Positions 2,778 to 63,684 of a stretch of DNA of 64,000 nucleotides are shown in pieces. Under the pieces are notes generated by a model that saw only the letters and a program-made list of their open reading frames with translations, had not been told where the DNA came from and did no database searches. Source of the stretch: Gemmatimonadales bacterium (GTDB taxonomy: Bacteria > Gemmatimonadota > Gemmatimonadetes > Gemmatimonadales > GWC2-71-9); assembly GCA_035692845.1 (NCBI GenBank), contig DASSHL010000151.1, forward strand, positions 30,034 through 94,033, in the 5' to 3' direction. Position 1 is the stretch's first letter; each line of letters starts with the position of its first letter. Both the position numbers and the translations under genes were made by a program.

Positions 2778-3103
2778 AGAAGAGCGGGTGGCGCCGGCAG
2801 GAGGAACGCACAGCTCGACTGTATGGTGGCCGGCGCCAGCCCGGCTCGGGTGCCCACTGGTCGAGGAAGGGCGATGTTGTTACCCCCGAGCTGCTGATCG
2901 AAAACAAATGGCGGGGGAACAACCAGATCACGTTGAAAGGCGTTGACCTGGCGAAGAACTGCGACGAGGCTACGGCAGAAGGCAAGATTCCAGCGTTCGC
3001 AATCGAGCTGGCTGATCGGCGCTACGTCCTGTTTACCGAAGAAGACGTGCTGGAGCATTTCGTTGATCGATTGGGAGCGCCCAGGGTGGCAGGCCAGGAG
3101 TAA
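2774..3103 (+). CDS. PD-(D/E)XK-type nuclease (Holliday-junction-resolvase-like)
   Basis: GSGAHWSRKGDVV...LIENKW pattern (GSG..KGD...E.K) typical of small restriction-fold resolvases; ATGA overlap with recA-like stop. Confidence 0.5.
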   Translation: MKKSGWRRQEERTARLYGGRRQPGSGAHWSRKGDVVTPELLIENKWRGNNQITLKGVDLAKNCDEATAEGKIPAFAIELADRRYVLFTEEDVLEHFVDRLGAPRVAGQE

Positions 3104-4400
3104 GTGCGGAGGGTCACGCCCCGCGCTCTTCTACCCCGAGAAGGGCGAGGGTGAAGACGCCACAGCGGTGGCCCAGGCGGCCAAGTCGGTGTGCAACGGA
3201 TTGGACGGGCAGCCGGCGTGCCCGGTCAAGCAGGAGTGCCTGGAGTTTGCGCTCCAGCACCATGAGAAATTCGGCGTGTGGGGCGGGAGAACTGAGCGGG
3301 AGCGAAATTCGCTCAAGCGGATGCGGAAGAAGGTGAACGGCGTGGGCCGTGTCGTCCGGCAGGTGAAGAAGTCGCCGCTGCGACAGATCCTCGACACCTC
3401 CAAGACCGAGACACGCATCCTCGGCGCCATTCAGCGCCACATCATGATCCGCCCACCTGATGACCGCCGCCAGGACGTGATCCATCCCTCGGAGATGTGC
3501 AAGTCCGACTGGTGCCCGCGCTCGACCTTCTTCCGGCTCGTCGGGGCGCCGGCCATCGAGGACACTGACGCCAACCCCTTCACCCTGGAGAACGTCTGGG
3601 CCGAGGGCCACGATATTCACGACAAATGGCAGACCTGGCTGTGGGAGATGGGCCTGCTCCGCGGTCATTGGCGCTGCAACGCCTGCAAGACCGAGTGGGA
3701 CGCCACGGCGCCGAAGAGCTGCCCACTGTGCAAGGCCGACGTGAGCTGTCTCGAATACCGGGAGGTGCCGCTGACCGGTGAGAAGTACCTCATCGGCGGC
3801 CACGCCGACGGCGACATTGCTGACGACGATGTCGAGGAGCTGTGCCCGCTGATCGAGATCAAAAGCATCGGTATGGGCACGATCCGCTACGACGCTCCGC
3901 ACCTGCTCTCGAAGTACACCCGCAAGGTCAAGAACGACGATGGCTCCGAGCGCTCGGTGTTCGACATGGAGGCGCTCTGGCGTGACCTGAAGCGCCCCTT
4001 CGCCAGTCACGTCAAGCAGGGCATGCTCTACCTCGCCATCTCGGGCCGGCGGGAGATCATCTTCATCTACGAGAACAAATTCAATCAGCAGGTGAAGGAA
4101 TTCCGGGTCCGGTACCAGGAGACGCTGGTGGCCGACCTGCTCGACGCCTGCCTGGACATCAAGTACGCCCTGAAGAGCAACACGCCGCCGCGTCGGCCGC
4201 ACTGGGCCGCCATCGAGAACACCACTTGTGCCAAGTGCGTCTACAGGGAGAACTGCTGGGACGCCGCATTGGAGAATGATGACGAAGAACCTGGCTCTCG
4301 AAATGGCCGAGAAAGCAGCAACGGCCAAGGCCCAGCTCGAACGCGGCGGGTTGTCATTGCCGGCTCGTCCGGCCTTCGAAATACCAAGGCTTCCGCTTAA
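3063..4400 (+). CDS. WhiB-like domain fused to Cas4/RecB-type PD-(D/E)XK exonuclease with Cys cluster
   Basis: N-term C...VCNGLDGQPACPVKQECLEFAL..FGVWGG.TERER is a WhiB signature. C-term HADGD...IEIKS...KQGMLY nuclease motifs plus N-terminal CKSDWC and C-terminal CAKCVYRENC resemble the Cas4 Fe-S Cys set. Start uncertain: TTG 3063 chosen; the ORF stays open back to TTG 2943. Confidence 0.75.
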   Translation: MIDWERPGWQARSKCGGSRPALFYPEKGEGEDATAVAQAAKSVCNGLDGQPACPVKQECLEFALQHHEKFGVWGGRTERERNSLKRMRKKVNGVGRVVRQVKKSPLRQILDTSKTETRILGAIQRHIMIRPPDDRRQDVIHPSEMCKSDWCPRSTFFRLVGAPAIEDTDANPFTLENVWAEGHDIHDKWQTWLWEMGLLRGHWRCNACKTEWDATAPKSCPLCKADVSCLEYREVPLTGEKYLIGGHADGDIADDDVEELCPLIEIKSIGMGTIRYDAPHLLSKYTRKVKNDDGSERSVFDMEALWRDLKRPFASHVKQGMLYLAISGRREIIFIYENKFNQQVKEFRVRYQETLVADLLDACLDIKYALKSNTPPRRPHWAAIENTTCAKCVYRENCWDAALENDDEEPGSRNGRESSNGQGPARTRRVVIAGSSGLRNTKASA

Positions 4401-16552: not shown

Positions 16553-17031
16553 CGGCCGCCTTCTTCGACTTCGAGGAGGTGCTGGCCCGGCAGACGCGTG
16601 AGCCGCTGGCGCTCGGCCTCAAGCTGGTCCGGTTGGTGCGGCCGGCGTTCCGGCTGATCCTTTCCACCGAGGAAACCCAGCCCGAGCTGGTGCAGCATTG
16701 GCTGCTGGAAAATGCGCTGCCGAGGGACACGTTCGCTTACCAGTACCACCTGCTGCCCGACGAACTGGAGCTGAGCGAGGACGAGGTATTCGAGCGGCAT
16801 CTGGATCGTGCTCTCGTCCATATCAACATCGAGATGGTGGTCACGGCCAGTCCCACCAGGGCGGCCATCGCCATGCGGCGCTCGATCACAGCACTGCTCT
16901 TCGCCTCGCCGGCAACGGCGCGCCCTGAATTTCGGCCGGGGCTGCGGCCATGGGATGAAATCTCGGAGGAGGTGAGTCGTCGTCGTATCCTGAGGGCAAA
17001 AGCCACCGTGGGGAATGCCGATGACGACTGA
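16549..17031 (+). CDS. hypothetical protein
   Basis: ATGA coupling; AFFDFEEVL could be a degenerate HAD motif I (weak). Confidence 0.5.
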   Translation: MTAAFFDFEEVLARQTREPLALGLKLVRLVRPAFRLILSTEETQPELVQHWLLENALPRDTFAYQYHLLPDELELSEDEVFERHLDRALVHINIEMVVTASPTRAAIAMRRSITALLFASPATARPEFRPGLRPWDEISEEVSRRRILRAKATVGNADDD

Positions 17032-18418
17032 CACCAAGCCGTTCCAGCTCTATTTCCAGGGCGCCGAGCAGAAGGGCTGGCAGCGTTTGCTGCTGGCCGA
17101 GGGCGTGCGGAACCTGGGCATCAGCTTCACCTACTTCTACCGCAAGGTGAAGCGCTCGAACTGGGAGCTGCCTGATTTCCCTACTGGTACCAGCGTGCTG
17201 CTCGACAGCGGTGCCTTCGGCGCCAACAAGAACCCCGGCCAGATGGACGACAACGGCTGGCGGGAGTACGAGACGGGCTACTGCGAATTCGTGGAGGACA
17301 ACCTCGACGCCATCGACATCGTGGCCGAGTTCGACCTCCAGCAGCTCGGCTACGACCACATCAAGGGCATGCGGGAGACGTTCTGGGACGGCCTTGGCTC
17401 GAAGTTCATGCCGATCTGGCACCCGCACTACGGGATGGACGAGCTGGAGCGCCTGGCCCGACGCTACGACCGCGTCGGCGTACCCGGCAGCGCTCTGGCC
17501 GAGCTGAGCTACCTGGGCGGCCGGATCAACACCCTCAGCCGGCAATGGGACACCCGCTTCCACGGCATCGCCTTGACCCAGCCCGACGTGCTTCGCAACG
17601 TCCACTTCGCCACGGCGGCCAGTACGAGCTGGATCAGCCCGAGCAAATTCGGCGACACCCAGGTCTTCGACGGCCACCGGCTCAAGCGCTACCCCAAGCG
17701 GTACAAGGACCGGGCGCGCCGGCAGCACAAGATGGCCTTCGAGCGGGCCGGCTTCGACGCCGCCAAGATCCTCGCCGATGACCCGGTCGAGGTCACCCGA
17801 TTCACCGTCTGGAGCTGGCGGCGCTTCGAAGAATCGCTCGCGAAGCACAGGGGAGTTACTCCCTCGGTCGACTCGGTGACCGGGGAGATCGCGCCGAGCA
17901 CCACTGGCCCAGTTGGTACCTCCCCCGTTCTGGCGCGCACAGAAGAGGCCGTCCCGCTGCCGGTGCTCAACTTCACGCCGGCCGAGACGTTGACGCTGGC
18001 GCCGGCCGAGACGGTGCGGACGTGCTCGAACTGCTACGTGGCCGCCCAGTGCCCTGCATTTCGCCCTGACGCCTCCTGTGCCTTCAACCTGCCGGTCAGC
18101 CTGCGGACCCGCGAGCAGCTCCTGGGGGCGCTCTACAGCATCGTGGAGATGCAGGTGCAGCGGGTGGCCTTCGGCCGGTACACCGAGGAGCTGGAGGGCG
18201 GCTACAGCGACCCGAACCTCTCCAACGAGGTTGACCGGCTCATGCGCCTGGTCAAGGAGCTGAAGGACATCGAGGACACCCGCGACACCGTCCGGCAGAT
18301 CACCGAGATCAAGGCCGGCGCCGGGGTGCTCTCCCGCATCTTCGGAGAGCGACCCCAGCCCGAGCTGCCGGCCACCAACGGCCACGTCATCGAGGGCGAG
18401 GTCGTGGAGGGGGATTAA
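17015..18418 (+). CDS. TIM-barrel-like protein with DSGAF motif (possible TGT/DpdA-family transglycosylase) plus Cys-cluster/helical C-terminal half
   Basis: VLLDSGAFGA recalls the DSGGFQ catalytic motif of tRNA-guanine transglycosylases and DpdA; alternating strand-like segments (NLGISFTYF, IVAEFD, RVGVPG, RFHGIAL, ATAASTSWISP); C-term CSNCYVAAQCPAFRPDASC. The CDS is secure; the function is tentative. Confidence 0.4.
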   Translation: MPMTTDTKPFQLYFQGAEQKGWQRLLLAEGVRNLGISFTYFYRKVKRSNWELPDFPTGTSVLLDSGAFGANKNPGQMDDNGWREYETGYCEFVEDNLDAIDIVAEFDLQQLGYDHIKGMRETFWDGLGSKFMPIWHPHYGMDELERLARRYDRVGVPGSALAELSYLGGRINTLSRQWDTRFHGIALTQPDVLRNVHFATAASTSWISPSKFGDTQVFDGHRLKRYPKRYKDRARRQHKMAFERAGFDAAKILADDPVEVTRFTVWSWRRFEESLAKHRGVTPSVDSVTGEIAPSTTGPVGTSPVLARTEEAVPLPVLNFTPAETLTLAPAETVRTCSNCYVAAQCPAFRPDASCAFNLPVSLRTREQLLGALYSIVEMQVQRVAFGRYTEELEGGYSDPNLSNEVDRLMRLVKELKDIEDTRDTVRQITEIKAGAGVLSRIFGERPQPELPATNGHVIEGEVVEGD

Positions 18419-36089: not shown

Positions 36090-36581
36090 GTGGCAACCAT
36101 TCGGGAACAGGTCATCGCCAACCTCGGCCGGCGAAAGAACCGGGAAATCCGCGAGGCCGAGGGCTTCGTCACCTCGAAGCTCGCCCACCAGCTCAAGATC
36201 GAGCCGGGCACGCTGGCCTCGACGCTCAGGCGTATGGAGGAGCGGGGCGAGATCCAACGCGAGGTGCAAGGCAAGCGCAGCTACGCCATCCGTCTGTGCG
36301 AGGTCGAGACAGAGGCCCCTGCAGCGGCTCCTGCAGCCCCGGTAACCAACGGACGGTCAACGCTCACCCAAGAGCGCCTGGACGCCGTAGCGGCCGTTCT
36401 GGAGGAGTATCCGGCCCTGGAGGAAGAGAACCGGCAGCTTCACCGGGAGCTGGGCAAGGCCGAGGAGAAGATCGAGGCGTTGGAGCTGCAGATCGCTGCG
36501 CTCAAGCGCCAGGTCGACGCGACCAAGGACACGGCCAAGCTCATCGCCGAAATCCAGGAGCGCCTGCAGAAAATCGGTTGA
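36090..36581 (+). CDS. winged-helix DNA-binding protein with C-terminal coiled coil
   Basis: GTG start; FVTSKLAHQLKIEPGTLASTLRRMEERGEIQRE is a MarR/wHTH-like pattern, then a heptad-rich tail. Confidence 0.55.
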   Translation: MATIREQVIANLGRRKNREIREAEGFVTSKLAHQLKIEPGTLASTLRRMEERGEIQREVQGKRSYAIRLCEVETEAPAAAPAAPVTNGRSTLTQERLDAVAAVLEEYPALEEENRQLHRELGKAEEKIEALELQIAALKRQVDATKDTAKLIAEIQERLQKIG

Positions 36582-36734
36582 CGCTTCTCGGCGGGCGCTG
36601 CAATATCTCCGAGGGCGGAACGAGGAATCGAAGGCGATATGCCTCGCGGCCGGCTCAAAACCGGCAGGGCGCAAGCCCAAAGAGCTGCCCTGCGCCGCAA
36701 GCAGCAGCCGTCCCTGCACCTTGACAATTTTTCA

Positions 36735-36878
36735 TCGGTCCCGAAGCGAAGGAGCGGGTTACTTCTCCTTACAAGAGGGGGACGCGGGTTCGAATCCCGC
36801 CGGCCGCCCGAGAGGGCGCCGTAGCCTAGTGGCCTAAGGCACCAACGTCTCCTGTTCCGACCTTGTTCTCGGGACCGA
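36735..36878 (+). ncRNA. Y-RNA-like module 1 with circularly permuted tRNA-like domain
   Basis: Closing helix tcggtcccg/cgggaccga; box aagcgaa; inner helix ggagcggg/cc(aa)cg(t)ctcc; hairpin cttctc-CTTACAA-gagggg; T-arm 36784-36800 (ttcgaat loop); GAGA-capped helix 36801-36821; D-arm 36824-36840; box ccttgttct. Confidence 0.7.
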
Positions 36879-36885
36879 CAATTCC

Positions 36886-37003
36886 TGACCCTGAAGCGAA
36901 GCATTTGGCTTACTTCTGACTGCTAATCAGACGATGCAGGTTCGACTCCTGCTGCAAAGGCCGGCGCCTAGTCGTACGCCGAGGCGACTGGTTCTCAGGG
37001 TCA
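36886..37003 (+). ncRNA. Y-RNA-like module 2 with anticodon-arm-like and T-arm hairpins
   Basis: Closing helix tgaccctg/cagggtca; box aagcgaag; ggcttacttc; tctga-CTGCTAA-tcaga 36915-36931; T-arm gcagg-ttcgact-cctgc 36936-36952; box ctggttc. Confidence 0.6.
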
Positions 37004-37008
37004 ACTCT

Positions 37009-37073
37009 CCGGGGGTAGTGACTGCGGTAGCTGGAAGTGGCCTGTACTGGTGGCGCAGAGGCCCTACCCCCGG
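37009..37073 (+). ncRNA. long hairpin between modules 2 and 3
   Basis: 10-bp perfect stem ccgggggtag/ctacccccgg enclosing a ctgcg...cgcag sub-helix; lacks the conserved boxes; function unknown. Confidence 0.4.
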
Positions 37074-37082
37074 ATTTTGTAA

Positions 37083-37156
37083 CTGCCAGATGCGAAGGCA
37101 ATGCGGTACTTCTTTCGGTGAAGACAACCCGCGAGGCCATCCCTGTTCTCTGGCAG
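37083..37156 (+). ncRNA. Y-RNA-like module 3 (minimal, single distal hairpin)
   Basis: Closing helix ctgccaga/tctggcag; box tgcgaag; inner helix tgcgg/ccgcg; ta-cttc-tttcggt-gaag hairpin; box cctgttc; followed by ccttttc. Confidence 0.6.
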
Positions 37157-37164
37157 CCTTTTCG

Positions 37165-37284
37165 CCGGCTCGGTGCGAAGGGCGTCGGTTACTTCTTGGT
37201 TCGAATCCAAGGTGATGGGGACGAGAGTCGCCGCACCTGCCCAATTGGCTTGGGCTACCCGACCCCGAACGGTTCCCGAGCCGG
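37165..37284 (+). ncRNA. Y-RNA-like module 4 with circularly permuted tRNA-like domain
   Basis: Closing helix ccggctcgg/ccgagccgg; box tgcgaa; inner helix ggg(C)gtcgg/ccgacccc with a bulged C; T-arm 37195-37211 (ttcgaat); GAGA-capped hairpin 37218-37232; D-arm gccca-attggct-tgggc 37239-37255; followed by tcttttt. Confidence 0.7.
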
Positions 37285-37291
37285 TCTTTTT
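37285..37291 (+). terminator. U-tract following module 4 helix (possible transcript 3' end)
   Basis: tcttttt immediately after the 9-bp closing helix; a 9-bp inverted repeat ttgacggcg/cgccgtcaa (37290-37298 / 37346-37354) follows. Confidence 0.35.
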
Positions 37292-37355
37292 GACGGCGTC
37301 AGGTGAAGAGGTGCGTGCCATAGAACTCGCTCCTTGAAAATTCGGCGCCGTCAAA

Positions 37356-37465
37356 TGGGCCAGAAGCGATGGGGTGCGGTACTTCGGTTAGAGGAGCCGG
37401 GGTTCGAAGCCCCGCTCTGCCGGTTCAAGCCCGGCTACCCGCTCTCCGACCTGTTCTCTGGCCCA
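37356..37465 (+). ncRNA. Y-RNA-like module 5 with non-permuted tRNA cloverleaf mimic
   Basis: Closing helix tgggccaga/tctggccca; box agcgat; inner helix ggggtgcgg/ccgctctcc (one U-U mismatch); TA; D-arm 37382-37396; anticodon-like arm cgggg-TTCGAAG-ccccg 37398-37414; T-arm gccgg-ttcaagc-ccggc 37419-37435; box gacctgttc. Confidence 0.7.
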
Positions 37466-37471
37466 GCTTCA

Positions 37472-37587
37472 CCCGCTCGATGCGACGGACCACGGTTACT
37501 TCGTGCCAGCCCTTCGGGGCACCGCCGGCCGACGAACCGGCAAACCGGGAAACCGGTCCTACCGTGTCCAAGCTGTTCTCGGGCGGG
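37472..37587 (+). ncRNA. Y-RNA-like module 6 (three non-tRNA hairpins)
   Basis: Closing helix cccgctcga/tcgggcggg (one G-U pair); box tgcgac; inner helix ggac(C)acgg/ccgtgtcc with a bulged C; ggttacttc; hairpins gtgcc..ggcac, gccgg..ccggc, ccgg-gaaa-ccgg; box aagctgttc; ends 22 nt before the Ro ATG. Confidence 0.6.
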
Positions 37588-37609
37588 AATTCGTACCCAG
37601 GGAGGAGCC

Positions 37610-39253
37610 ATGACCAAGTTCACCAATCGTCCCACCGCCCGGCCGACCGGCCCGGTTCGGAGCACTGGCATCACCCGGACCCACGAAGGCGCCGTCGGCT
37701 ACAGCCGAGACGCCGAGTCGGAGCTGTTCCTCCTGGCGGCCACCAACATGGTGTCGGAAGGCACCTTCTATGAGAGCGCCACCGCTCGCGACGAGCGCTT
37801 CCAGCGCCTCGTCCATCAGGTGGCGAAGACCAACCCCGAGTGGCTGCTCGGCGCCGAAGACCTGGAGCAGCGCACCGCCGGCAAGGTCGGCTTCATCGAG
37901 TACCTGCGGAACACCCTGCAGATGCGCTCGGCCAGCCTGGTCATGGCCGCCGAGTTCGTGCGCTCGGGCGCCCCCGGCGGCCGGCGTGCCGTCCGGCAGG
38001 CGATCTCCCGCGCCGACGAGCCGGCCGAGATCCTCGGCTACTGGATGAGCCAGTACGGCCGCAAGCTGCCGGCCGCCCTCAAGCGGGGTGTGGCCGACGC
38101 CGTGGTCCGGCTCTACACCGAGCGCAACGCCCTGAAGTGGGACGGCCAGAGCAAGGACATCCGCTTCGCCGACGTGATCGAGTTGGTTCACCCGCGGCCG
38201 CGCATGGTCTGGGGTGGCAAGGGGGCGCCGCCGGCCGGACGCCAGAGCGACCTGTTCAAGTACCTGCTCGACCGCCGGCACCACCCGGACAACGCCGAGA
38301 TCCCTGACAGCCTGGAGCTGATCCACCTGGACCGCCGGCTGCTCGCCATGCCCACCGAGGGCCGGCGCGTGGCGCTCAAGGAGGGCCTGGTGGCCGAGGC
38401 AGGCTGGAGCTGGGAGCGGCTCGCCGGCTGGCTGCCGGGCGGCATGGACTCCGAGGCGTGGATGTCGGTCATCCCGCAGATGGGCTACATGGCCCTGATC
38501 CGCAACCTGCGGAATTTCGATGACGCCGGCATTTACGCCAAGGTCAAGTCCGAGGTCTGCCGTCGGATCGAGGACCCCGAGGAGGTCGCCAAGAGTCGGC
38601 AGTTCCCGTACCGGTTCTGGAGCGCCTACAAGAACGCTCCGAGTCTGGAGTGGGGCGCCTCCCTGGAGCGTGCGCTCGACTACTCCTGCCGGAACATCCC
38701 CGAGCTGAGCGGCCGATCGCTGATCCTGATCGACACCTCGGCGTCGATGAACGACACCGTCTCCGACCGCAGCAAGGCGCGGCGGTTCGAGGTCGGCGCT
38801 CTGTTTGCCGGCGCTCTGGCGAAGCGGGCGGCCAACCCGACCGTGGTCATCTTCGGTGACCAGTCGAAGGAGTTCCCGATCGGCAAGTCGGAGTCGGTCC
38901 TGCGCTACGTAGACCGGGTGGGGGCAAGCATCGGCTCCGTCGGACACGGCACGATGATCTGGCGCTCGGTGCAGGAGCACTTCGCCAACCACGACCGGGT
39001 GGTGATTTTCACCGACGAGCAGAGCATGGACGACGCCGGCCAGCCGATGCGGACCTACTACGGCCGCAGCGACGGGATCGACAGCTCCACGTACAAGGCC
39101 ATCCCGGCCGTCCACGCCTTCAACCTGGCGGGGTACCGGGCCGGCACGGTGCCGCCCGGCAGTGGTCGGTACACCTACGGCGGGTTCACCGACGCCACGT
39201 TCGTGCTCATGGCGGCCCTGGAGGCCGGCAGCGAGGCAGGCTGGCCGTTCTAA
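37610..39253 (+). CDS. rsr: Ro60-like protein (TROVE domain plus C-terminal vWA/MIDAS)
   Basis: ATG 37610 after GGGAGGAG. N-term THEGAVGYSRDAESELFLLAATNMVSEGTFYES is TROVE-like. C-term LILIDTSASMND is a DxSxS MIDAS motif. The extra 92 N-terminal codons in the track ORF overlie the RNA modules. Confidence 0.8.
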   Translation: MTKFTNRPTARPTGPVRSTGITRTHEGAVGYSRDAESELFLLAATNMVSEGTFYESATARDERFQRLVHQVAKTNPEWLLGAEDLEQRTAGKVGFIEYLRNTLQMRSASLVMAAEFVRSGAPGGRRAVRQAISRADEPAEILGYWMSQYGRKLPAALKRGVADAVVRLYTERNALKWDGQSKDIRFADVIELVHPRPRMVWGGKGAPPAGRQSDLFKYLLDRRHHPDNAEIPDSLELIHLDRRLLAMPTEGRRVALKEGLVAEAGWSWERLAGWLPGGMDSEAWMSVIPQMGYMALIRNLRNFDDAGIYAKVKSEVCRRIEDPEEVAKSRQFPYRFWSAYKNAPSLEWGASLERALDYSCRNIPELSGRSLILIDTSASMNDTVSDRSKARRFEVGALFAGALAKRAANPTVVIFGDQSKEFPIGKSESVLRYVDRVGASIGSVGHGTMIWRSVQEHFANHDRVVIFTDEQSMDDAGQPMRTYYGRSDGIDSSTYKAIPAVHAFNLAGYRAGTVPPGSGRYTYGGFTDATFVLMAALEAGSEAGWPF

Positions 39254-57613: not shown

Positions 57614-59170
57614 ATGAGCGTCGTTGACGAGCAAAACCTTGAGGATTTAGAGCCGGAACCCGAACCGCTCGACGTAAATACGCAGGCATTTATCGAGCGG
57701 CTGATCGACGGAATTATCGAATTCATGCACCTGATGGTGGGGCACGAACTGCATCCCTACCAGATCTCGCCGGCCCGCCGGATGATCGAGTCCGTCCTCT
57801 TGAACGACGGCGAGGAATTGACCATCCTCATGTCTCGGCAGTCGGGGAAGTCCGAGACGGTAGCGGACGTGGTCGCCGCCCTACTGGTGCTCCTTCCCCG
57901 GCTGGCCGAGCAGTTCCCCGAATTCGAGAACCTCAAGAAATTCCGGCGTGGGTTCTGGGTCGGCATCTTTGCCCCGACCGACGAGCAGGCCGACACGATC
58001 TTCTCTCGTACCGTCAGCCGGCTCACCTCTGACCACGCCATGGACCTGCTGCTCGACCCTGAGCTGAACGAGTACCCCGAGGGCAAGGGCAAGCTCGTCA
58101 AGCTGAAGAAGAGCGGCTCGTTCTGCCGCATGCAGACCGCTCACCCCCGAGCGAAAATCGAGTCGAAGTCCTACCACCTGCTGATCGTGGACGAGGCCCA
58201 GCACGCCGACGAGCACGTCGTGCGGAAATCCATCCACCCCATGGGCGCTTACTACAACGCCTCGCTGGTGAAGCTCGGCACGCCAGACGTGAAGAAGGGC
58301 GACTTCTACAAGGCCATCCAGCTCAACAAGCGCCGGCAGACCAAGCGAGGCGCCAAGCAGAACCACTTCGAATACGACTGGAAGGCGTGCGCCCGGTACA
58401 ACCCCAACTACCGGAAGTACGTCACGAAGGAATTGCAGCGCCTCGGTGAGGACAGCGACGAATTCCGCCTGAGCTACGCCCTGGAGTGGCTGCTCGAACG
58501 AGGCATGTTCGTCACGCAGTCGATCATGGAAGAGCTGACGGACCCGAAGATGGACCTCGTCAAGAGCTGGTTCAAGTCGCCGGTCCTGGTGGGCATCGAC
58601 CCCGCCCGGAAGATCGACTCCACCGTCGTCACGGTGGTGTGGGTCGACTGGGACCGGCCCGATGAATTCGGCTACTACGACCACCGAATTCTGAATTGGC
58701 TGGAGCTGCACGGCGACGACTGGGAGAGTCAGTACTGGAAGATCTGCGATTTCCTCCAGTACTACGACGTGCTCGGCGTCGGCGTCGATTCGCAGGGCGT
58801 GGGCGACGCTGTGGCCGAGAGGCTGAAGCGCCTGCTCCCCCGCGCAGAGGTCCACGCCCTGCGATCGAACCGCCCGGACCAGTCAGAGCGCTGGAAGCAC
58901 CTGATGGAGCTGGTGCAGCGCCGGATGGTGGCCTGGCCCGGCAGCTCGCGGGCGAAGCGCACGAAGGTCTGGCAGCGCTACATGCAGCAGATGATGGACC
59001 TGGAGAAGCACTACGAGGGGCCGCACCTGCTGGCCCGCGCCCCCGACGAAGCCGAGGCCCATGACGACTACCCCGATAGCCTGGCCTTGGCGTGCGTGCT
59101 CACCAAGGAGATGACCATGCCCACCGTCGAGGTCAGCACAGCTCCCTTCTACGAAGAGAGGCGGCGGTAG
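57614..59170 (+). CDS. terL: terminase large subunit
   Basis: ILMSRQSGKSET (Walker A-like), HLLIVDEAQH (Walker B), C-terminal nuclease-like VGVDSQGVGDAV...DDYPDSLA; 518 aa. Confidence 0.8.
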   Translation: MSVVDEQNLEDLEPEPEPLDVNTQAFIERLIDGIIEFMHLMVGHELHPYQISPARRMIESVLLNDGEELTILMSRQSGKSETVADVVAALLVLLPRLAEQFPEFENLKKFRRGFWVGIFAPTDEQADTIFSRTVSRLTSDHAMDLLLDPELNEYPEGKGKLVKLKKSGSFCRMQTAHPRAKIESKSYHLLIVDEAQHADEHVVRKSIHPMGAYYNASLVKLGTPDVKKGDFYKAIQLNKRRQTKRGAKQNHFEYDWKACARYNPNYRKYVTKELQRLGEDSDEFRLSYALEWLLERGMFVTQSIMEELTDPKMDLVKSWFKSPVLVGIDPARKIDSTVVTVVWVDWDRPDEFGYYDHRILNWLELHGDDWESQYWKICDFLQYYDVLGVGVDSQGVGDAVAERLKRLLPRAEVHALRSNRPDQSERWKHLMELVQRRMVAWPGSSRAKRTKVWQRYMQQMMDLEKHYEGPHLLARAPDEAEAHDDYPDSLALACVLTKEMTMPTVEVSTAPFYEERRR

Positions 59171-61938: not shown

Positions 61939-63684
61939 ATGGCGATCGATTTTCATAGCGCATCATTCAGAGCCGCCCAGAGTGACCTGACGGTCGCCAT
62001 CTCCCCTCTCGGCCTGGTCGAGCTGGCCGACGAGGAATTCGAGGTCCACGGCCCGAGGCTGAACCGCTACGCCCACAACTGGGCCTGGTACCTCGGCCAT
62101 CACTGGGGCTACCGGCGCGAGGCCGGCGAGCCGCAGCTCACCTTCAACTACTGCCGGGCGCTCTCGGACTTCACGACGAACTTCACCTTCGGCCAGGGCG
62201 TGACGTTCCGCACGCCGGACGAGACGGAGGGGATCATCCCCGCTCGTCTGCGGCGCGTCTGGGAGGTGGACAACGACAAGCAGGCGCTGCTGTGGGAGGT
62301 CGGCCAGCTCGGATCGGTGAGCGGCGATGTCTTCGTGAAAGTGGCCTACGAGGACCCCTGGGCCGACCCCATCGGCCGGCCGCACCCCGGCCGGGTCCGC
62401 ATCATCCCGCTGAACCCGGCGCACTGCTTCCCTGAGTTCCACCCGCACGACCGGTCGCGCATGATCCGGTTCAAGCTGAAGTACCGCTTCTGGGGGACCA
62501 GCGCCGAAGGCACACGGCAGGTGTTCACGTACACCGAGCTGATCACCGAGAGCTTCATCGAGGAGTACGTCAACGACGAGATCATCGACCAGCGGGAGAA
62601 CCCGCTCGGCACGATCCCGATCGTCCACATCCCCAACCTGCCGGTGTCCGGCTCGCCGTGGGGCCTCTCCGACCTCTCCGACATCACCACGCTGAACCGG
62701 GAGTACAACGAGAAGGCCACCGACATCTCCGACATCATCAATTACCACGCCGCTCCGGTGACGGTAATTACGGGGGCCAAGGCCAGCCAGCTCGAAAAGG
62801 GGCCGCGCAAGGTCTGGGGTGGCCTGCCCAAGGACGCCAACGTCTTCAACCTGGAGCTGGGCGCCAACCTGGCCGCCCCGCTCGAATACCTCCACATGCT
62901 GAAGACGACGATGCACGAAATGACGGGTGTCCCCGAGTCGGCGCTCGGCCAGATCATCCCGATCAGCAACACCTCGGGCGTGGCGCTCGCCATTCAGTAC
63001 CAGCCCATGATGCAGCGCTACCAGCTCAAGAAGATCCAGTACGGCAGGGGCTTCGCCAAGGTCAACGAGCTGATCATGCTCACGTTGGCGCTCAAGGAAC
63101 CCGAAGCGCTGATGTGGAACCCGGAAGAGGACGAGGAGCTGAAGGAGGGCCAGTACCCCGTCCTCGACCCGCAGGACCCGATCACCTACCAGACGATGAC
63201 GCACTGGCCGTCGCCGATGCCCATCGACCAGCTCGTCGCCCTCAACGAGATCCAGCTCAAGATGGGCCTCGGCCTGGAGTCCAAGCGGGGCGCCCTGCGC
63301 GACCTCGGCTTCGATTTCCCCGATGAGAAGATGGCCGAGATTTTCCAGGAGCTGATCGATGACGCCGTGGAGCAGGGCGCTCTCGAAATGCTGAAGACGC
63401 AGATCGCGGCGCTCGTCATGCAGTCGACCGGCATGATGCCGGGCAGCATGGCGCCGGGCGAGGAAGAGGGCGGGCCGGGAATCAACTCGGCCGGCGGCGC
63501 CGATGTAACGTCTGCCGGCCAGCCAGGGCCGGCCTCGGAACCTGGCGGCGGCGTGACGGGCCTCCCCTTCGGCGGGCTGCCGGGCGGGATGGATGCACAG
63601 AAGCTCCTGACGGAGCTGGTAACGAAGGCGTACGGCACCAAGCTGGCGCAGCGACGGTCGCCTGAGAACGACACAGGCGACTAA
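61939..63684 (+). CDS. portal protein
   Basis: 581 aa, position downstream of terminase, acidic/Gly-rich C-terminal tail, portal-like composition; assigned by synteny and size, not by a sharp motif. Confidence 0.65.
   Translation: MAIDFHSASFRAAQSDLTVAISPLGLVELADEEFEVHGPRLNRYAHNWAWYLGHHWGYRREAGEPQLTFNYCRALSDFTTNFTFGQGVTFRTPDETEGIIPARLRRVWEVDNDKQALLWEVGQLGSVSGDVFVKVAYEDPWADPIGRPHPGRVRIIPLNPAHCFPEFHPHDRSRMIRFKLKYRFWGTSAEGTRQVFTYTELITESFIEEYVNDEIIDQRENPLGTIPIVHIPNLPVSGSPWGLSDLSDITTLNREYNEKATDISDIINYHAAPVTVITGAKASQLEKGPRKVWGGLPKDANVFNLELGANLAAPLEYLHMLKTTMHEMTGVPESALGQIIPISNTSGVALAIQYQPMMQRYQLKKIQYGRGFAKVNELIMLTLALKEPEALMWNPEEDEELKEGQYPVLDPQDPITYQTMTHWPSPMPIDQLVALNEIQLKMGLGLESKRGALRDLGFDFPDEKMAEIFQELIDDAVEQGALEMLKTQIAALVMQSTGMMPGSMAPGEEEGGPGINSAGGADVTSAGQPGPASEPGGGVTGLPFGGLPGGMDAQKLLTELVTKAYGTKLAQRRSPENDTGD

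What the first reader, a model, noticed from the sequence alone, without database searches (positions are those of the whole stretch)
36735..37465. Two tRNA-mimic topologies in one array, three units with canonical anticodon-loop geometry (possible tRNA-enzyme decoys)
Units 1 and 4 read in this order:
- T-arm (gcggg-ttcgaat-cccgc 36784-36800; cttgg-ttcgaat-ccaag 37195-37211);
- then a GAGA-capped acceptor-like hairpin (36801-36821; 37218-37232);
- then a D-arm (gcct-agtggccta-aggc 36824-36840; gccca-attggct-tgggc 37239-37255).
This is the circularly permuted tRNA layout known for YrlA.

Unit 5 is instead a non-permuted cloverleaf:
- TA;
- D-arm cttc-GGTTAGA-ggag;
- arm cgggg-TTCGAAG-ccccg;
- 4-nt variable region;
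- T-arm gccgg-TTCAAGC-ccggc, with G53/C61-type closing pairs.
Its acceptor equivalent is a 9-bp helix offset by 3 nt that runs on into the Ro-type stem. There is therefore no free 3' end to charge.

Unit 2 carries tctga-CTGCTAA-tcaga plus a T-arm. Unit 1 carries cttctc-CTTACAA-gagggg. All three 7-nt loops keep U at position 33 and A at position 37, around the triplets CGA, GCU and UAC.

Inference: beyond scaffolding Ro, these could act as baits or competitive inhibitors for enzymes that read the anticodon stem-loop or the tRNA elbow. Candidates are host anticodon nucleases used in phage defence, tRNA modification enzymes, and RNase P/Z. I know of no described system of Ro-tethered anticodon-loop mimics.
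Basis: inference. Interest (0 to 1): 0.65.

Follow-up and report, generated by a model that had tools for sequence, protein, structure and literature searches.

The report
Phage Y RNAs that mimic tRNAs
A phage carries six small RNA genes in a row just before its Ro60 gene; they are Y RNAs, a known kind of Ro60-binding RNA that imitates transfer RNA, and two of them also copy the anticodon loop, a detail I did not find described in the papers I could read.

Summary
The region is an array of six Y-RNA-like units (U1-U6, 36735-37590) ending 20 nt before a phage Ro60/TROVE gene.

- U1 is a full YrlA-type unit: anticodon-like arm, 4-nt variable loop, T arm, closed 7-bp acceptor-like stem, UA, D arm. 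It scores 69 bits on a model built only from other loci.
- U4 has the same layout without the anticodon-like arm.
- U2 keeps the anticodon-like arm and T arm only.
- U5 has the native tRNA arm order.
- U3 and U6 are not tRNA-like.

Across 172 further Ro loci from phages, metagenomes and Actinomycetota, 102 units carry a 5-bp/7-nt hairpin before the T arm. Its loop keeps the anticodon-loop frame (U33 in 99/102, purine 37 in 98/102, A38 in 95/102) while the triplet varies (39 kinds) and the stem covaries. This hairpin is the published 'V' arm of YrlA.

U5's middle loop is not conserved, so two units, not three, have supported anticodon-loop mimicry.

The decoy idea is untested. The hairpin is not phage-specific, and the published precedent I found is a speculation about the YrlA tRNA-like domain, not this loop. 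Verdict: a known kind of RNA with a new variant feature.

The parts
36735..36878 (+). U1: complete YrlA-type Y RNA. Ro-binding stem with AGCGAAGG (5') and CUUGUUCUC (3'); GGUUAC; anticodon-like arm 36763-36779 (loop CUUACAA); variable loop 36780-36783; T arm 36784-36800; closed acceptor-like stem 36801-36821 (7 bp plus a bulged C, GAGA cap); UA 36822-23; D arm 36824-36840.
   Evidence: R1, a model built only from other loci, matches 36758-36841 full length at 69 bits, E 3.9e-13. Rfam YrlA partial match of 24.4 bits. Fold z-score -4.36. Orthologues in L005 and L006.
36885..37004 (+). U2: Y RNA with an anticodon-like arm 36915-36931 (UCUGA-CUGCUAA-UCAGA), CGAU, T arm 36936-36952, then an irregular hairpin. 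There is no D arm.
   Evidence: The MFE fold shows both hairpins. Rfam tRNA 26.7 bits. R1 25.8 bits. The arm is identical in L006 while the T stem covaries. The loop CTGCTAA occurs on 9 different stems.
37007..37077 (+). H1: hairpin with a perfect 10-bp closing stem and no CGAA motif. Role unknown.
   Evidence: Fold. No counterpart in L006.
37080..37158 (+). U3: short Y RNA (YrlB-like) with UGCGAAGG, GGUAC-UUC and a small hairpin. No tRNA-like arms.
   Evidence: Fold z-score -2.86. Orthologues in L004, L005 and L006.
37165..37287 (+). U4: YrlA-type Y RNA without an anticodon-like arm. GGUUAC-UU, then T arm 37195-37211, closed hairpin 37212-37238 (GAGA cap), UG, and a D-like arm CCCA-AUUGGCU-UGGG 37241-37255. 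The closing stem is followed by UCUUUUU.
   Evidence: Fold z-score -3.55. R1 15.8-18.4 bits. Orthologue in L005 348-470. D arm found by script. Terminator-like site.
37288..37357 (+). H2: conserved hairpin/spacer carrying GGUGAAGAGGUGCGUGCCAUAGAACUCG..CCUUGAAAAUUC. In L004-L006 a real tRNA-Glu(CUC) sits at this position.
   Evidence: Core conserved in L001 200-260. tRNA-Glu in L004-L006.
37358..37466 (+). U5: Y RNA with the native tRNA arm order. UA, D-loop-like hairpin 37382-37396 (GG in the loop), middle hairpin 37398-37414 (T-loop-like TTCGAAG), CUCU, T arm 37419-37435 (UUCAAGC), UAC, then a helix that runs into the Ro-binding stem.
   Evidence: Alignment with L004-L006 shows compensatory changes in the lower stem and T stem. 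ARAGORN calls the L006 orthologue tRNA-Arg(tcg). This type is confined to the closest clade. R1 suggests an alternative homology.
37472..37590 (+). U6: Y RNA with UGCGACGG, GGUUAC-UUC and three short hairpins. No T or D arm.
   Evidence: Fold z-score -2.71. Repeat family D1/D2.
37610..39253 (+). Ro60/Rsr orthologue (547 aa), the presumed protein partner of the six RNAs.
   Evidence: Pfam TROVE 4.6e-14, vWA_Ro60 5e-4. 3249 homologues at E<=1e-30.

Best explanation
The region is a co-oriented array of six Y RNA genes (YrlA/YrlB-like non-coding RNAs) directly upstream of a phage ro60/rsr gene. The phage is actinophage-like.

Each unit pairs its ends into a stem. That stem carries the Ro60-recognition motif ((A/U)GCGA(A/U/C)GG on the 5' strand, C(U)GUUCUC on the 3' strand) and the conserved GG(U)UAC-UUC junction. 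The interior of each unit is a different effector module:
- U1 is a whole tRNA that is circularly permuted. The Ro-binding stem is attached between positions 26 and 27. An anticodon-like arm, a 4-nt variable loop, a T arm, a closed 7-bp acceptor stem, U8-A9 and a D arm follow in that order.
- U4 is the same without the anticodon-like arm.
- U2 keeps the anticodon-like arm and T arm only.
- U5 presents a D-loop/T-loop elbow in native order.
- U3 and U6 are plain hairpin modules.

By analogy with characterised Ro60-Y RNA particles, the RNAs bind the phage Ro60 through the stem. They use the tRNA-like modules to recruit, or be handled by, host proteins that recognise tRNA shape (PNPase, RNase P, CCA-adding enzyme, TruB/Dus-type enzymes).

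Shown here: the anatomy, its conservation and covariation, and its linkage to Ro60.
Inferred: transcription, Ro60 binding and tethering.

The anticodon-like loop evolves under tRNA-like constraints, so something probably reads it as an anticodon loop. What reads it is unknown.
For: - Ro60 gene 20 nt downstream on the same strand. Phage hallmark genes in the window.
- Six units share 5' and 3' motifs and closed stems.
- Syntenic orthologous units lie upstream of Ro in L004-L012, with compensatory changes.
- Model R1 was built from 55 units of other phage and bacterial loci. Its 7-bp acceptor-like stem is 96.3% paired with double changes in all 7 pairs, and no shuffle in 500 reached the observed score. 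R1 matches U1 at 69 bits.
- RNAalifold independently predicts the T, acceptor-like and D helices.
- Anticodon-like hairpin: 102 of 130 candidates form a 5-bp/7-nt hairpin. Counts are C/U32 in 92, U33 in 99, purine 37 in 98, A38 in 95, and a pyrimidine before the T arm in 92 of 102. There are 39 different triplets. The inner stem pairs each show 4 pair types. Position 37 tracks position 36: U36-A37 52/52, G36-G37 17/17.
- 83 of the 102 continue into an acceptor-like hairpin plus a D arm.
- Literature: YrlA architecture, the V stem-loop, the YUAY motif, phage YrlAs, and RNase P/CCA processing of M. smegmatis YrlA. YrlA crystal structure. A phage Ro60 binds two upstream Yrl RNAs and host PNPase.
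Against: - No expression, processing or Ro60-binding data exist for this phage.
- Rfam's YrlA model scores U1 at only 24.4 bits against a cut-off of 69. That model also misses all 20 cellular actinobacterial loci tested.
- RNAalifold does not predict the anticodon-like helix in the consensus. The helix is weak: two G-U pairs, one C-G pair and two variable pairs. In U1 the MFE fold prefers another register.
- In the solved S. Typhimurium YrlA the Ro-proximal stem takes the anticodon-stem position. The hairpin may therefore sit in space as a variable arm, not as an anticodon arm.
- Counts over loci are not phylogenetically independent.
Confidence: 0.75

Rival explanations
1. One reading: the Ro-tethered anticodon-loop and elbow mimics are baits or competitive inhibitors for host enzymes that read tRNA. 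Candidates are anticodon nucleases used in defence, modification enzymes, and RNase P/Z. This would protect phage translation.
For: - The canonical anticodon-loop frame is conserved while the triplet varies among lineages (39 triplets). This is the pattern expected if the loops track different targets.
- Seven of the eight loci with two or more anticodon-bearing units carrying different loops are viral or metagenomic loci or this window. The window carries UAC and GCU.
- The acceptor end is closed, so the RNAs cannot be charged as they stand.
- Hughes et al. 2020 raise competitive inhibition of an anticodon nuclease by YrlA as a possibility.
Against: - The same hairpin is found in Y RNAs next to rsr in cellular Actinomycetota (41 of 102 units), so it predates and is independent of phage use.
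- No anticodon nuclease, RNA ligase or repair gene was seen next to the array.
- U5's loop is not conserved.
- Nothing here measures binding or cleavage.
Confidence: 0.15
2. Processing model. As in M. smegmatis, RNase P opens the closed 7-bp acceptor stem of U1-type units and CCA is added. This gives a two-piece, Ro60-bound molecule that has all four tRNA arms and a free CCA end. It could be aminoacylated or could enter tRNA pathways.
For: - M. smegmatis YrlA is cut by RNase P at the tRNA 5'-end position and gains CCA in vivo, attributed to its 7-bp acceptor stem.
- The acceptor-like stem is exactly 7 bp across the family. The modal hairpin is 18 nt, meaning 7 bp plus a tetraloop.
- U1 has 7 pairs plus a bulged C.
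- With the anticodon-like arm, the cleaved product would be a complete tRNA look-alike.
Against: - U1's stem has a bulge and an extra closing pair.
- No CCA is encoded.
- U2, U4 and U5 lack a regular 7-bp stem.
- Aminoacylation has not been shown for any Y RNA.
Confidence: 0.12
3. The hairpin before the T arm is only a structural variable arm. This is the published 'V' reading. Its loop frame is kept because U-turn loops are stable, with no anticodon-related partner.
For: - Chen et al. 2014 place it as the V arm.
- In the S. Typhimurium crystal structure the Ro-proximal stem occupies the anticodon-stem position.
- RNAalifold does not call the helix.
- About a fifth of candidate units have other hairpin sizes.
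Against: - The 5-bp stem, 7-nt loop and 4-5-nt linker ending in a pyrimidine reproduce positions 27-48 of a class I tRNA, not a class II variable arm. This comparison rests on my knowledge of tRNA anatomy.
- The 36/37 coupling mirrors real tRNAs.
- The loops CUGCUAA and CUGUUAA are each kept on 9 different stems.
Confidence: 0.2
4. The units are decaying tRNA genes left over from a phage tRNA array, with no function of their own.
For: - Relatives carry real tRNA genes in the same intergenic region: tRNA-Glu in L004-L006 and 25 tRNAs in L007.
- Model R1 also hits junctions of tandem tRNAs.
Against: - End-to-end stems, the CGAA motif and GGUUACUUC are conserved in all six units and in more than 100 loci.
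- Compensatory changes maintain the helices.
- The units stay linked to Ro60 in both bacteria and phages.
Confidence: 0.03

Closest known systems
YrlA (Y RNA-like A) of bacteria and phages (Chen et al. 2014, PMC4201824; Rfam RF02553; structure PDB 6CU1, Wang et al. 2018)
   Same: - Encoded next to Ro60 on the same strand, with the ends paired into a Ro-binding stem carrying a CGAA motif.
- A YUAY motif, an optional 'V' stem-loop, then T arm, closed acceptor-like hairpin, UA and D arm.
- U1 and U4 have exactly this order.
   Different: - There are six paralogous units in one array.
- The 'V' stem-loop of U1 and U2 has the dimensions and loop frame of an anticodon arm. In contrast, S. Typhimurium YrlA is described as lacking an anticodon loop.
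- The Rfam model does not reach its cut-off.
D. radiodurans Yrn1
   Same: The arm order is that of a normal tRNA (D-like, middle arm, T arm) inside a Ro-binding stem, as in U5. Chen et al. 2014 note that the middle arm takes the anticodon-arm position.
   Different: - No sequence relationship was tested.
- U5 sits in the same array as YrlA-type units.
- U5's middle arm is variable in length and loop among orthologues.
YrlB / Yrn2-type Y RNAs
   Same: They are short Ro-bound hairpin RNAs encoded beside YrlA and cut from one precursor. U3 and U6 look like this.
   Different: U6 has three internal hairpins. No homology to the named YrlB RNAs was tested.
[quoted passage not shown]
   Same: It has a 7-bp acceptor-like stem, and the family here keeps 7 bp.
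   Different: Processing is untested here. U1's stem has a bulged C.
Thermus phage phiLo Ro60 with Yrl1 and Yrl2 (PMC12135203)
   Same: A phage Ro60 with several Y-like RNAs just upstream. It binds them and also host PNPase.
   Different: - There are two RNAs, not six.
- No tRNA-like modules are described there.
- Its Ro60 is only about 27% identical to the window's.
Circularly permuted tRNA genes of algae and archaea
   Same: The acceptor stem starts as a closed loop and the RNA ends lie on the anticodon side.
   Different: Those are spliced and ligated into working tRNAs. No such pathway is known in bacteria. Here the ends form a Ro-binding stem.
Phage-encoded tRNAs that bypass anticodon nucleases
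   Same: The functional idea is similar: phage RNAs with anticodon loops that deal with tRNA-targeting defence.
   Different: Those are chargeable tRNAs that replace cleaved host tRNAs. The units here have no free acceptor end and are not detected as tRNAs.

Membership tests
YrlA-type Y RNA (as defined by Chen et al. 2014) | Encoded within 4 kb of a Ro60/TROVE gene, on the same strand. | tested here: met
   The array ends at 37590. The Ro60 ORF starts at 37610 on the + strand.
YrlA-type Y RNA (as defined by Chen et al. 2014) | 5' and 3' ends pair, and there is a GNCGAA(N)G-like motif near the 5' end. | tested here: met
   All six units close end to end. The motif is (A/U)GCGAAGG in U1-U4, GCGAUGG in U5 and GCGACGG in U6. 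The CGAA core is exact in four units and one base off in two.
YrlA-type Y RNA (as defined by Chen et al. 2014) | T arm, then a closed acceptor-like hairpin, then UA plus a D arm, with tRNA-like conserved bases. | tested here: met
   Met for U1 (R1 69 bits full length) and more weakly for U4 (15.8-18.4 bits; D arm CCCA/UGGG). Not met for U2, U3, U5 and U6.
YrlA-type Y RNA (as defined by Chen et al. 2014) | Conserved YUAY at the start of the V region. | tested here: met
   UUAC in U1, U2, U4 and U6; GUAC in U3 and U5.
YrlA-type Y RNA (as defined by Chen et al. 2014) | Bound by Ro60/Rsr; carries pseudouridine 55 and dihydrouridine. | not testable with these tools
   Needs immunoprecipitation and modification mapping.
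Rfam RF02553 (YrlA) | Score at or above the gathering cut-off of 69 bits. | tested here: not met
   24.4 bits for U1, model positions 24-84 only. The model also finds nothing in 20 cellular actinobacterial Ro loci, so the cut-off is uninformative for this clade.
tRNA | Recognised by tRNA detectors. | tested here: not met
   ARAGORN finds 0 genes. Rfam tRNA gives 26.7 bits for U2 and 16.1 bits for U1 against a cut-off of 29.
tRNA | A 7-bp acceptor stem formed by free 5' and 3' ends. | tested here: not met
   The acceptor-like stem is a closed hairpin in U1 and U4. In U2 and U5 the ends run into the Ro-binding stem.
Yrn1-type (native arm order) Y RNA | D-like element, middle arm, then T arm inside the Ro-binding stem. 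| tested here: inconclusive
   - The order is present in U5 and its L004-L006 orthologues, and the T stem covaries.
- The D-like stem is not kept in one register.
- R1 offers another homology.
- No comparison with the Yrn1 sequence was made.
Circularly permuted tRNA gene | Processed by splicing and ligation into a mature tRNA. | not testable with these tools
   No splicing motif was examined. No bacterial pathway is known.

The most novel reading that the evidence does not exclude
Y RNAs of Actinomycetota and their phages are complete, permuted tRNAs. Their anticodon loops are read by anticodon-loop-specific proteins. In phages, arrays of units with different anticodons act as a Ro60-tethered panel of decoys or sensors for tRNA-cleaving defence nucleases. 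Ro60 and its nuclease partners would then be brought to, or kept away from, damaged tRNA.
Probability: 0.15. Interest if true: 0.8.

Novelty: new variant of a known kind. Interest (0 to 1): 0.5.

Why it matters
What the tRNA-like module of bacterial Y RNAs binds is an open question. The authors of the crystal structure expect an unknown tRNA-binding effector that reads the elbow.

The finding here is that the hairpin before the T arm keeps the universal anticodon-loop frame, and even the 36/37 coupling, in about 100 loci. This widens the candidate partners to enzymes that read anticodon loops: t6A and m1G37 enzymes, and anticodon nucleases. It also gives concrete, cheap experiments.

Two other consequences follow:
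- It adds support for the proposal that YrlA arose from tandem tRNAs.
- It shows that some 'tRNA' annotations beside Ro genes in public phage genomes are probably Y RNA modules.

Tried and rejected
- Near and distant DNA search of the array against 50,697 phage records gave one 75-nt chance-level hit.
- Rfam at gathering score found nothing in the window or in 20 bacterial loci.
- An exact-pattern scan of genome contigs for the U2 arm found no matches.
- The first MAFFT seed alignment (A2) mixed two hairpin registers, so I dropped it in favour of fixed-length sets.
- My first D-arm regular expression was faulty and under-counted: 9 of 102. The corrected count is 83 of 102.
- Recent copying of U2's arm from a real tRNA-Ser(GCU) is rejected. 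The real tRNA-Ser of L007 has a different arm.
- Reading U5's TTCGAAG as an anticodon loop is rejected. The loop is not conserved and is T-loop-like.
- Three papers that may already discuss the V arm or decoys could not be read: Sim & Wolin 2018, Sim et al. 2020, and Burroughs & Aravind 2016. No supplement of Chen et al. 2014 is held.
Full report
**What is in the window.** Between a small HTH/coiled-coil ORF (36090-36581) and a 547-aa ORF with a TROVE domain (37610-39253; Pfam 4.6e-14) lies about 1 kb without a convincing ORF. It contains six units with the same frame:
- a 5' strand carrying (A/U)GCGA(A/U/C)GG;
- about 12 nt later, GG(U)UAC-UUC;
- a variable interior;
- a 3' strand carrying C(U)GUUCUC that pairs back to the 5' end.

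All six fold as closed stems. Their energies are 2.2-4.4 sd below dinucleotide shuffles. T-loop motifs are heavily concentrated here: 5 of the 9 in the window, against 1.04 expected for the whole 64 kb. The window itself is a tailed-phage genome with actinophage traits: terminase, portal, UvsX-like recombinase and a WhiB-exonuclease fusion. NCBI names the Ro protein as coming from a Gemmatimonadales MAG.

**Checking the observation.**
- ARAGORN calls no tRNA in 64 kb.
- Rfam has no hit at gathering score.
- Below threshold, U2 scores 26.7 bits on the tRNA model (cut-off 29), through its anticodon-like and T arms.
- U1 scores 24.4 bits on the T/acceptor/D part of YrlA.

**Relatives.** The array has no close DNA relative among 50,697 phage records. 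The best phage Ro60 there is 42% identical. Closer relatives exist in metagenome assemblies, with Ro 55-73% identical. All have a 0.4-1.9-kb gene-free stretch upstream of Ro.
- L005 and L006 carry recognisable orthologues of U1, U2 (L006 only), U3, U4 (L005 only) and U5, in the same order.
- They also carry a genuine tRNA-Glu(CUC) where the window has a hairpin, H2.
- L007 has 25 real tRNAs in front of its Y units.

I then fetched 80 further viral Ro loci and 80 loci from Actinomycetota genomes.

**U1, U4 and the YrlA layout.** From 55 units of those other loci (none from the window or its close relatives) I built an alignment. It runs from the UAC motif to the D arm (A5).
- With the structure I specified, 96.2% of cells pair against 73.6% in shuffles, and no shuffle in 500 reached the observed value.
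- The acceptor-like stem was not used to select the sequences. It is 7 bp, 96.3% paired, and all 7 pairs show changes on both sides.
- RNAalifold on its own predicts the T, acceptor-like and D helices.
- The covariance model R1 matches window 36758-36841 full length at 69 bits, E 3.9e-13. U2 scores 25.8 bits and U4 15.8-18.4 bits.

U1 is therefore a bona fide member of the architecture that Chen et al. 2014 described as YrlA: Ro-binding stem with a CGAA motif, YUAY, an optional 'V' stem-loop, T arm, closed acceptor-like hairpin and D arm. They reported it in 254 bacteria and 22 phages. U4 is the version without the V hairpin. That form recurs: 28 units have the T arm 2-3 nt after UAC.

**The anticodon-like hairpin.** I scanned all loci for T arms (at most one mismatch) preceded by the G-N(1-2)-UAC-U(U/C) junction. 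Nothing was required of the sequence in between.
- Of 261 such T arms, 108 have the junction 21-22 nt upstream.
- Of the 130 at 20-23 nt, 102 form a 5-bp stem (at most one mismatch) with a 7-nt loop, followed by 4-5 nt.

The loop composition is that of an anticodon loop:

| Position | Count out of 102 |
|---|---|
| 32 | C 81, U 11 |
| 33 | U 99 |
| 37 | A 77, G 21 |
| 38 | A 95 |
| Last linker base | pyrimidine 92 |

- Positions 34-36 take 39 different triplets, led by GUU (21) and GCU (10).
- Position 37 follows position 36 as in real tRNAs: U36-A37 52/52, G36-G37 17/17.
- The outer three stem pairs are nearly fixed (UUC with GRG). The inner two each take four pair types.
- The loops CUGCUAA and CUGUUAA each occur on nine different stems.
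- The window's U2 arm is identical to L006's while the adjacent T stem covaries. U1's loop CUUACAA recurs in L005 on a stem with two compensatory changes.
- Of the 102 units, 83 continue into an acceptor-like hairpin (modal 18 nt) plus a D arm.

These RNAs thus contain every arm of a tRNA in canonical dimensions. The arms are permuted so that the Ro-binding stem joins between positions 26 and 27.

Of the 102 units, 41 are from cellular Actinomycetota. The feature is therefore not phage-specific. It is the 'V' stem-loop of Chen et al., who read the Ro-proximal stem as the anticodon stem.

The papers I could read describe YrlA as mimicking the D, T and acceptor arms. They describe S. Typhimurium YrlA as lacking an anticodon loop. 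I found no description of the V loop as an anticodon mimic. Three relevant papers were not available.

Cautions:
- RNAalifold does not call this helix.
- U1's MFE fold prefers a shifted register.
- About a fifth of candidates have other hairpin shapes.
- Counts across related loci are not independent.

**U5 and the second topology.** U5 reads UA, CUUC-GGUUAGA-GGAG, C, CGGGG-UUCGAAG-CCCCG, CUCU, GCCGG-UUCAAGC-CCGGC, UAC, then a helix that runs into the Ro stem.
- Orthologues in L004-L006 keep the order. They show compensatory changes in the lower stem (A:U to U:A, C:G to U:A) and in the T stem (GCCGG/CCGGC to GGAGG/CCUCC).
- ARAGORN even calls the L006 copy tRNA-Arg(tcg).
- A looser version (UAC-UUC-GGWUAAA, a variable hairpin, a T arm with UUCAARY) is confined to the nearest clade.

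The native-order unit is therefore real, and it coexists with permuted units in several arrays.

- The D-like stem is not kept in one register.
- The middle loop is CCUAAAAA, CGACAAC/ACAA or a UUCG tetraloop in orthologues. The window's UUCGAAG is therefore not a conserved anticodon mimic, and it looks like a second T-loop.
- R1 aligns it to the T-arm position.

Two orientations of T and D arms among Y RNAs were already noted for YrlA versus D. radiodurans Yrn1. Finding both in one locus is new as far as I could see.

**How it most likely works.** The anatomy, the linkage to Ro60 and the covariation are shown. The rest is inferred from characterised systems:
- Y RNAs bind Ro60 through the stem and tether it to PNPase.
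- YrlA is modified by TruB and DusA.
- M. smegmatis YrlA is cut by RNase P and receives CCA.

I therefore read the array as a set of adaptor RNAs for the phage Ro60 with different tRNA-shaped modules.

The decoy hypothesis is compatible with the conserved loop frame and variable triplets. It is also compatible with phage arrays that carry two different anticodon-like loops. However, it is untested. The hairpin's presence in cellular Y RNAs shows it did not arise as a phage counter-measure. A related speculation for the YrlA tRNA-like domain is already in print. A processing model (RNase P opening of the 7-bp stem) and a purely structural variable-arm reading remain open.

**Verdict.** The proposed function is unproven. 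The locus belongs to a known kind (Ro60 with YrlA/YrlB-like Y RNAs). Its variant features are the six-unit array, both arm orders in one locus, and an anticodon-arm mimic that comparative data show to be under tRNA-like constraint.

Noticed in passing
L174 2141-2212 (Gordonia phage VanLee, NC_073474) and L173 2269-2343 (Streptomyces phage GiJojo, PP725410): The annotated tRNA-Arg(tct), which is VanLee's only tRNA in the stretch, and tRNA-Arg(cct) lie just upstream of the Ro gene. They are the anticodon-like arm plus T arm of Y RNA units with a closed acceptor-like stem and a D arm (R1 76.7 and 61.8 bits). They are probably misannotated tRNAs. ARAGORN 'tRNA-Ser(gct)' calls of 68-75 nt in six viral loci have the same context.
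   Followed up: partly
102 Y-embedded hairpins across loci L002-L172 and the window: Position 37 is coupled to position 36 more strictly than I expected: U36-A37 52/52, G36-G37 17/17, C36-A37 15/16. No G36-A37 or U36-G37 intermediates were seen. More than half of the loops have U36-A37-A38.
   Followed up: partly
L007 250-2700: The permuted-tRNA model R1 hits the junctions between adjacent real tRNA genes at 30-52 bits. This fits the published idea that YrlA arose from tandem tRNAs.
   Followed up: no
window 37288-37357 (H2); also 36718-36734 and 37333-37346: The H2 core GGTGAAGAGGTGCGTGCCATAGAACTCG..CCTTGAAAATTC is conserved in L001 (200-260). A CTTGA(C/A)AAT motif precedes both U1 and U5, and also the U1 orthologues in L005 and L006. 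This may be a promoter-type element, so the array may be two transcription units.
   Followed up: no
window 37270-37294: U4's closing stem is followed by TCTTTTT, a terminator-like site between U4 and H2.
   Followed up: no
window 37007-37077 (H1): A 71-nt hairpin with a perfect 10-bp closing stem lies between U2 and U3. It has no CGAA motif and no counterpart in L006. Its function is unknown.
   Followed up: no
L004 180-251, L005 477-548, L006 2796-2867; L007 252-2677: Close relatives carry a genuine tRNA-Glu(CUC), or 25 tRNAs, inside the same Ro-upstream region. The window has no tRNA gene at all in 64 kb.
   Followed up: partly
window 17015-18418, 2943-4400, 57614-59170, 61939-63684: There is a queuine tRNA-ribosyltransferase-like (Tgt/DpdA-type) ORF, a WhiB-exonuclease fusion, a terminase and a portal gene. 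This is actinophage-like content, although NCBI files the Ro protein under a Gemmatimonadales MAG. That is likely a binning error.
   Followed up: partly
L010 5739-6737: A Band_7 domain gene lies about 1.2 kb downstream of the Ro gene. This recalls the Band-7/tRNA-like RNA association cited in the YrlA structure paper.
   Followed up: no
window U4-U6 junctions (e.g. 37188-37191 with 37255-37258; 37380-37382 with 37436-37438; 37496-37499 with 37560-37562): UAC occurs on both strands where the upper stem opens (5' UUAC / 3' CUAC or UAC). This may be a conserved non-canonical junction motif.
   Followed up: no
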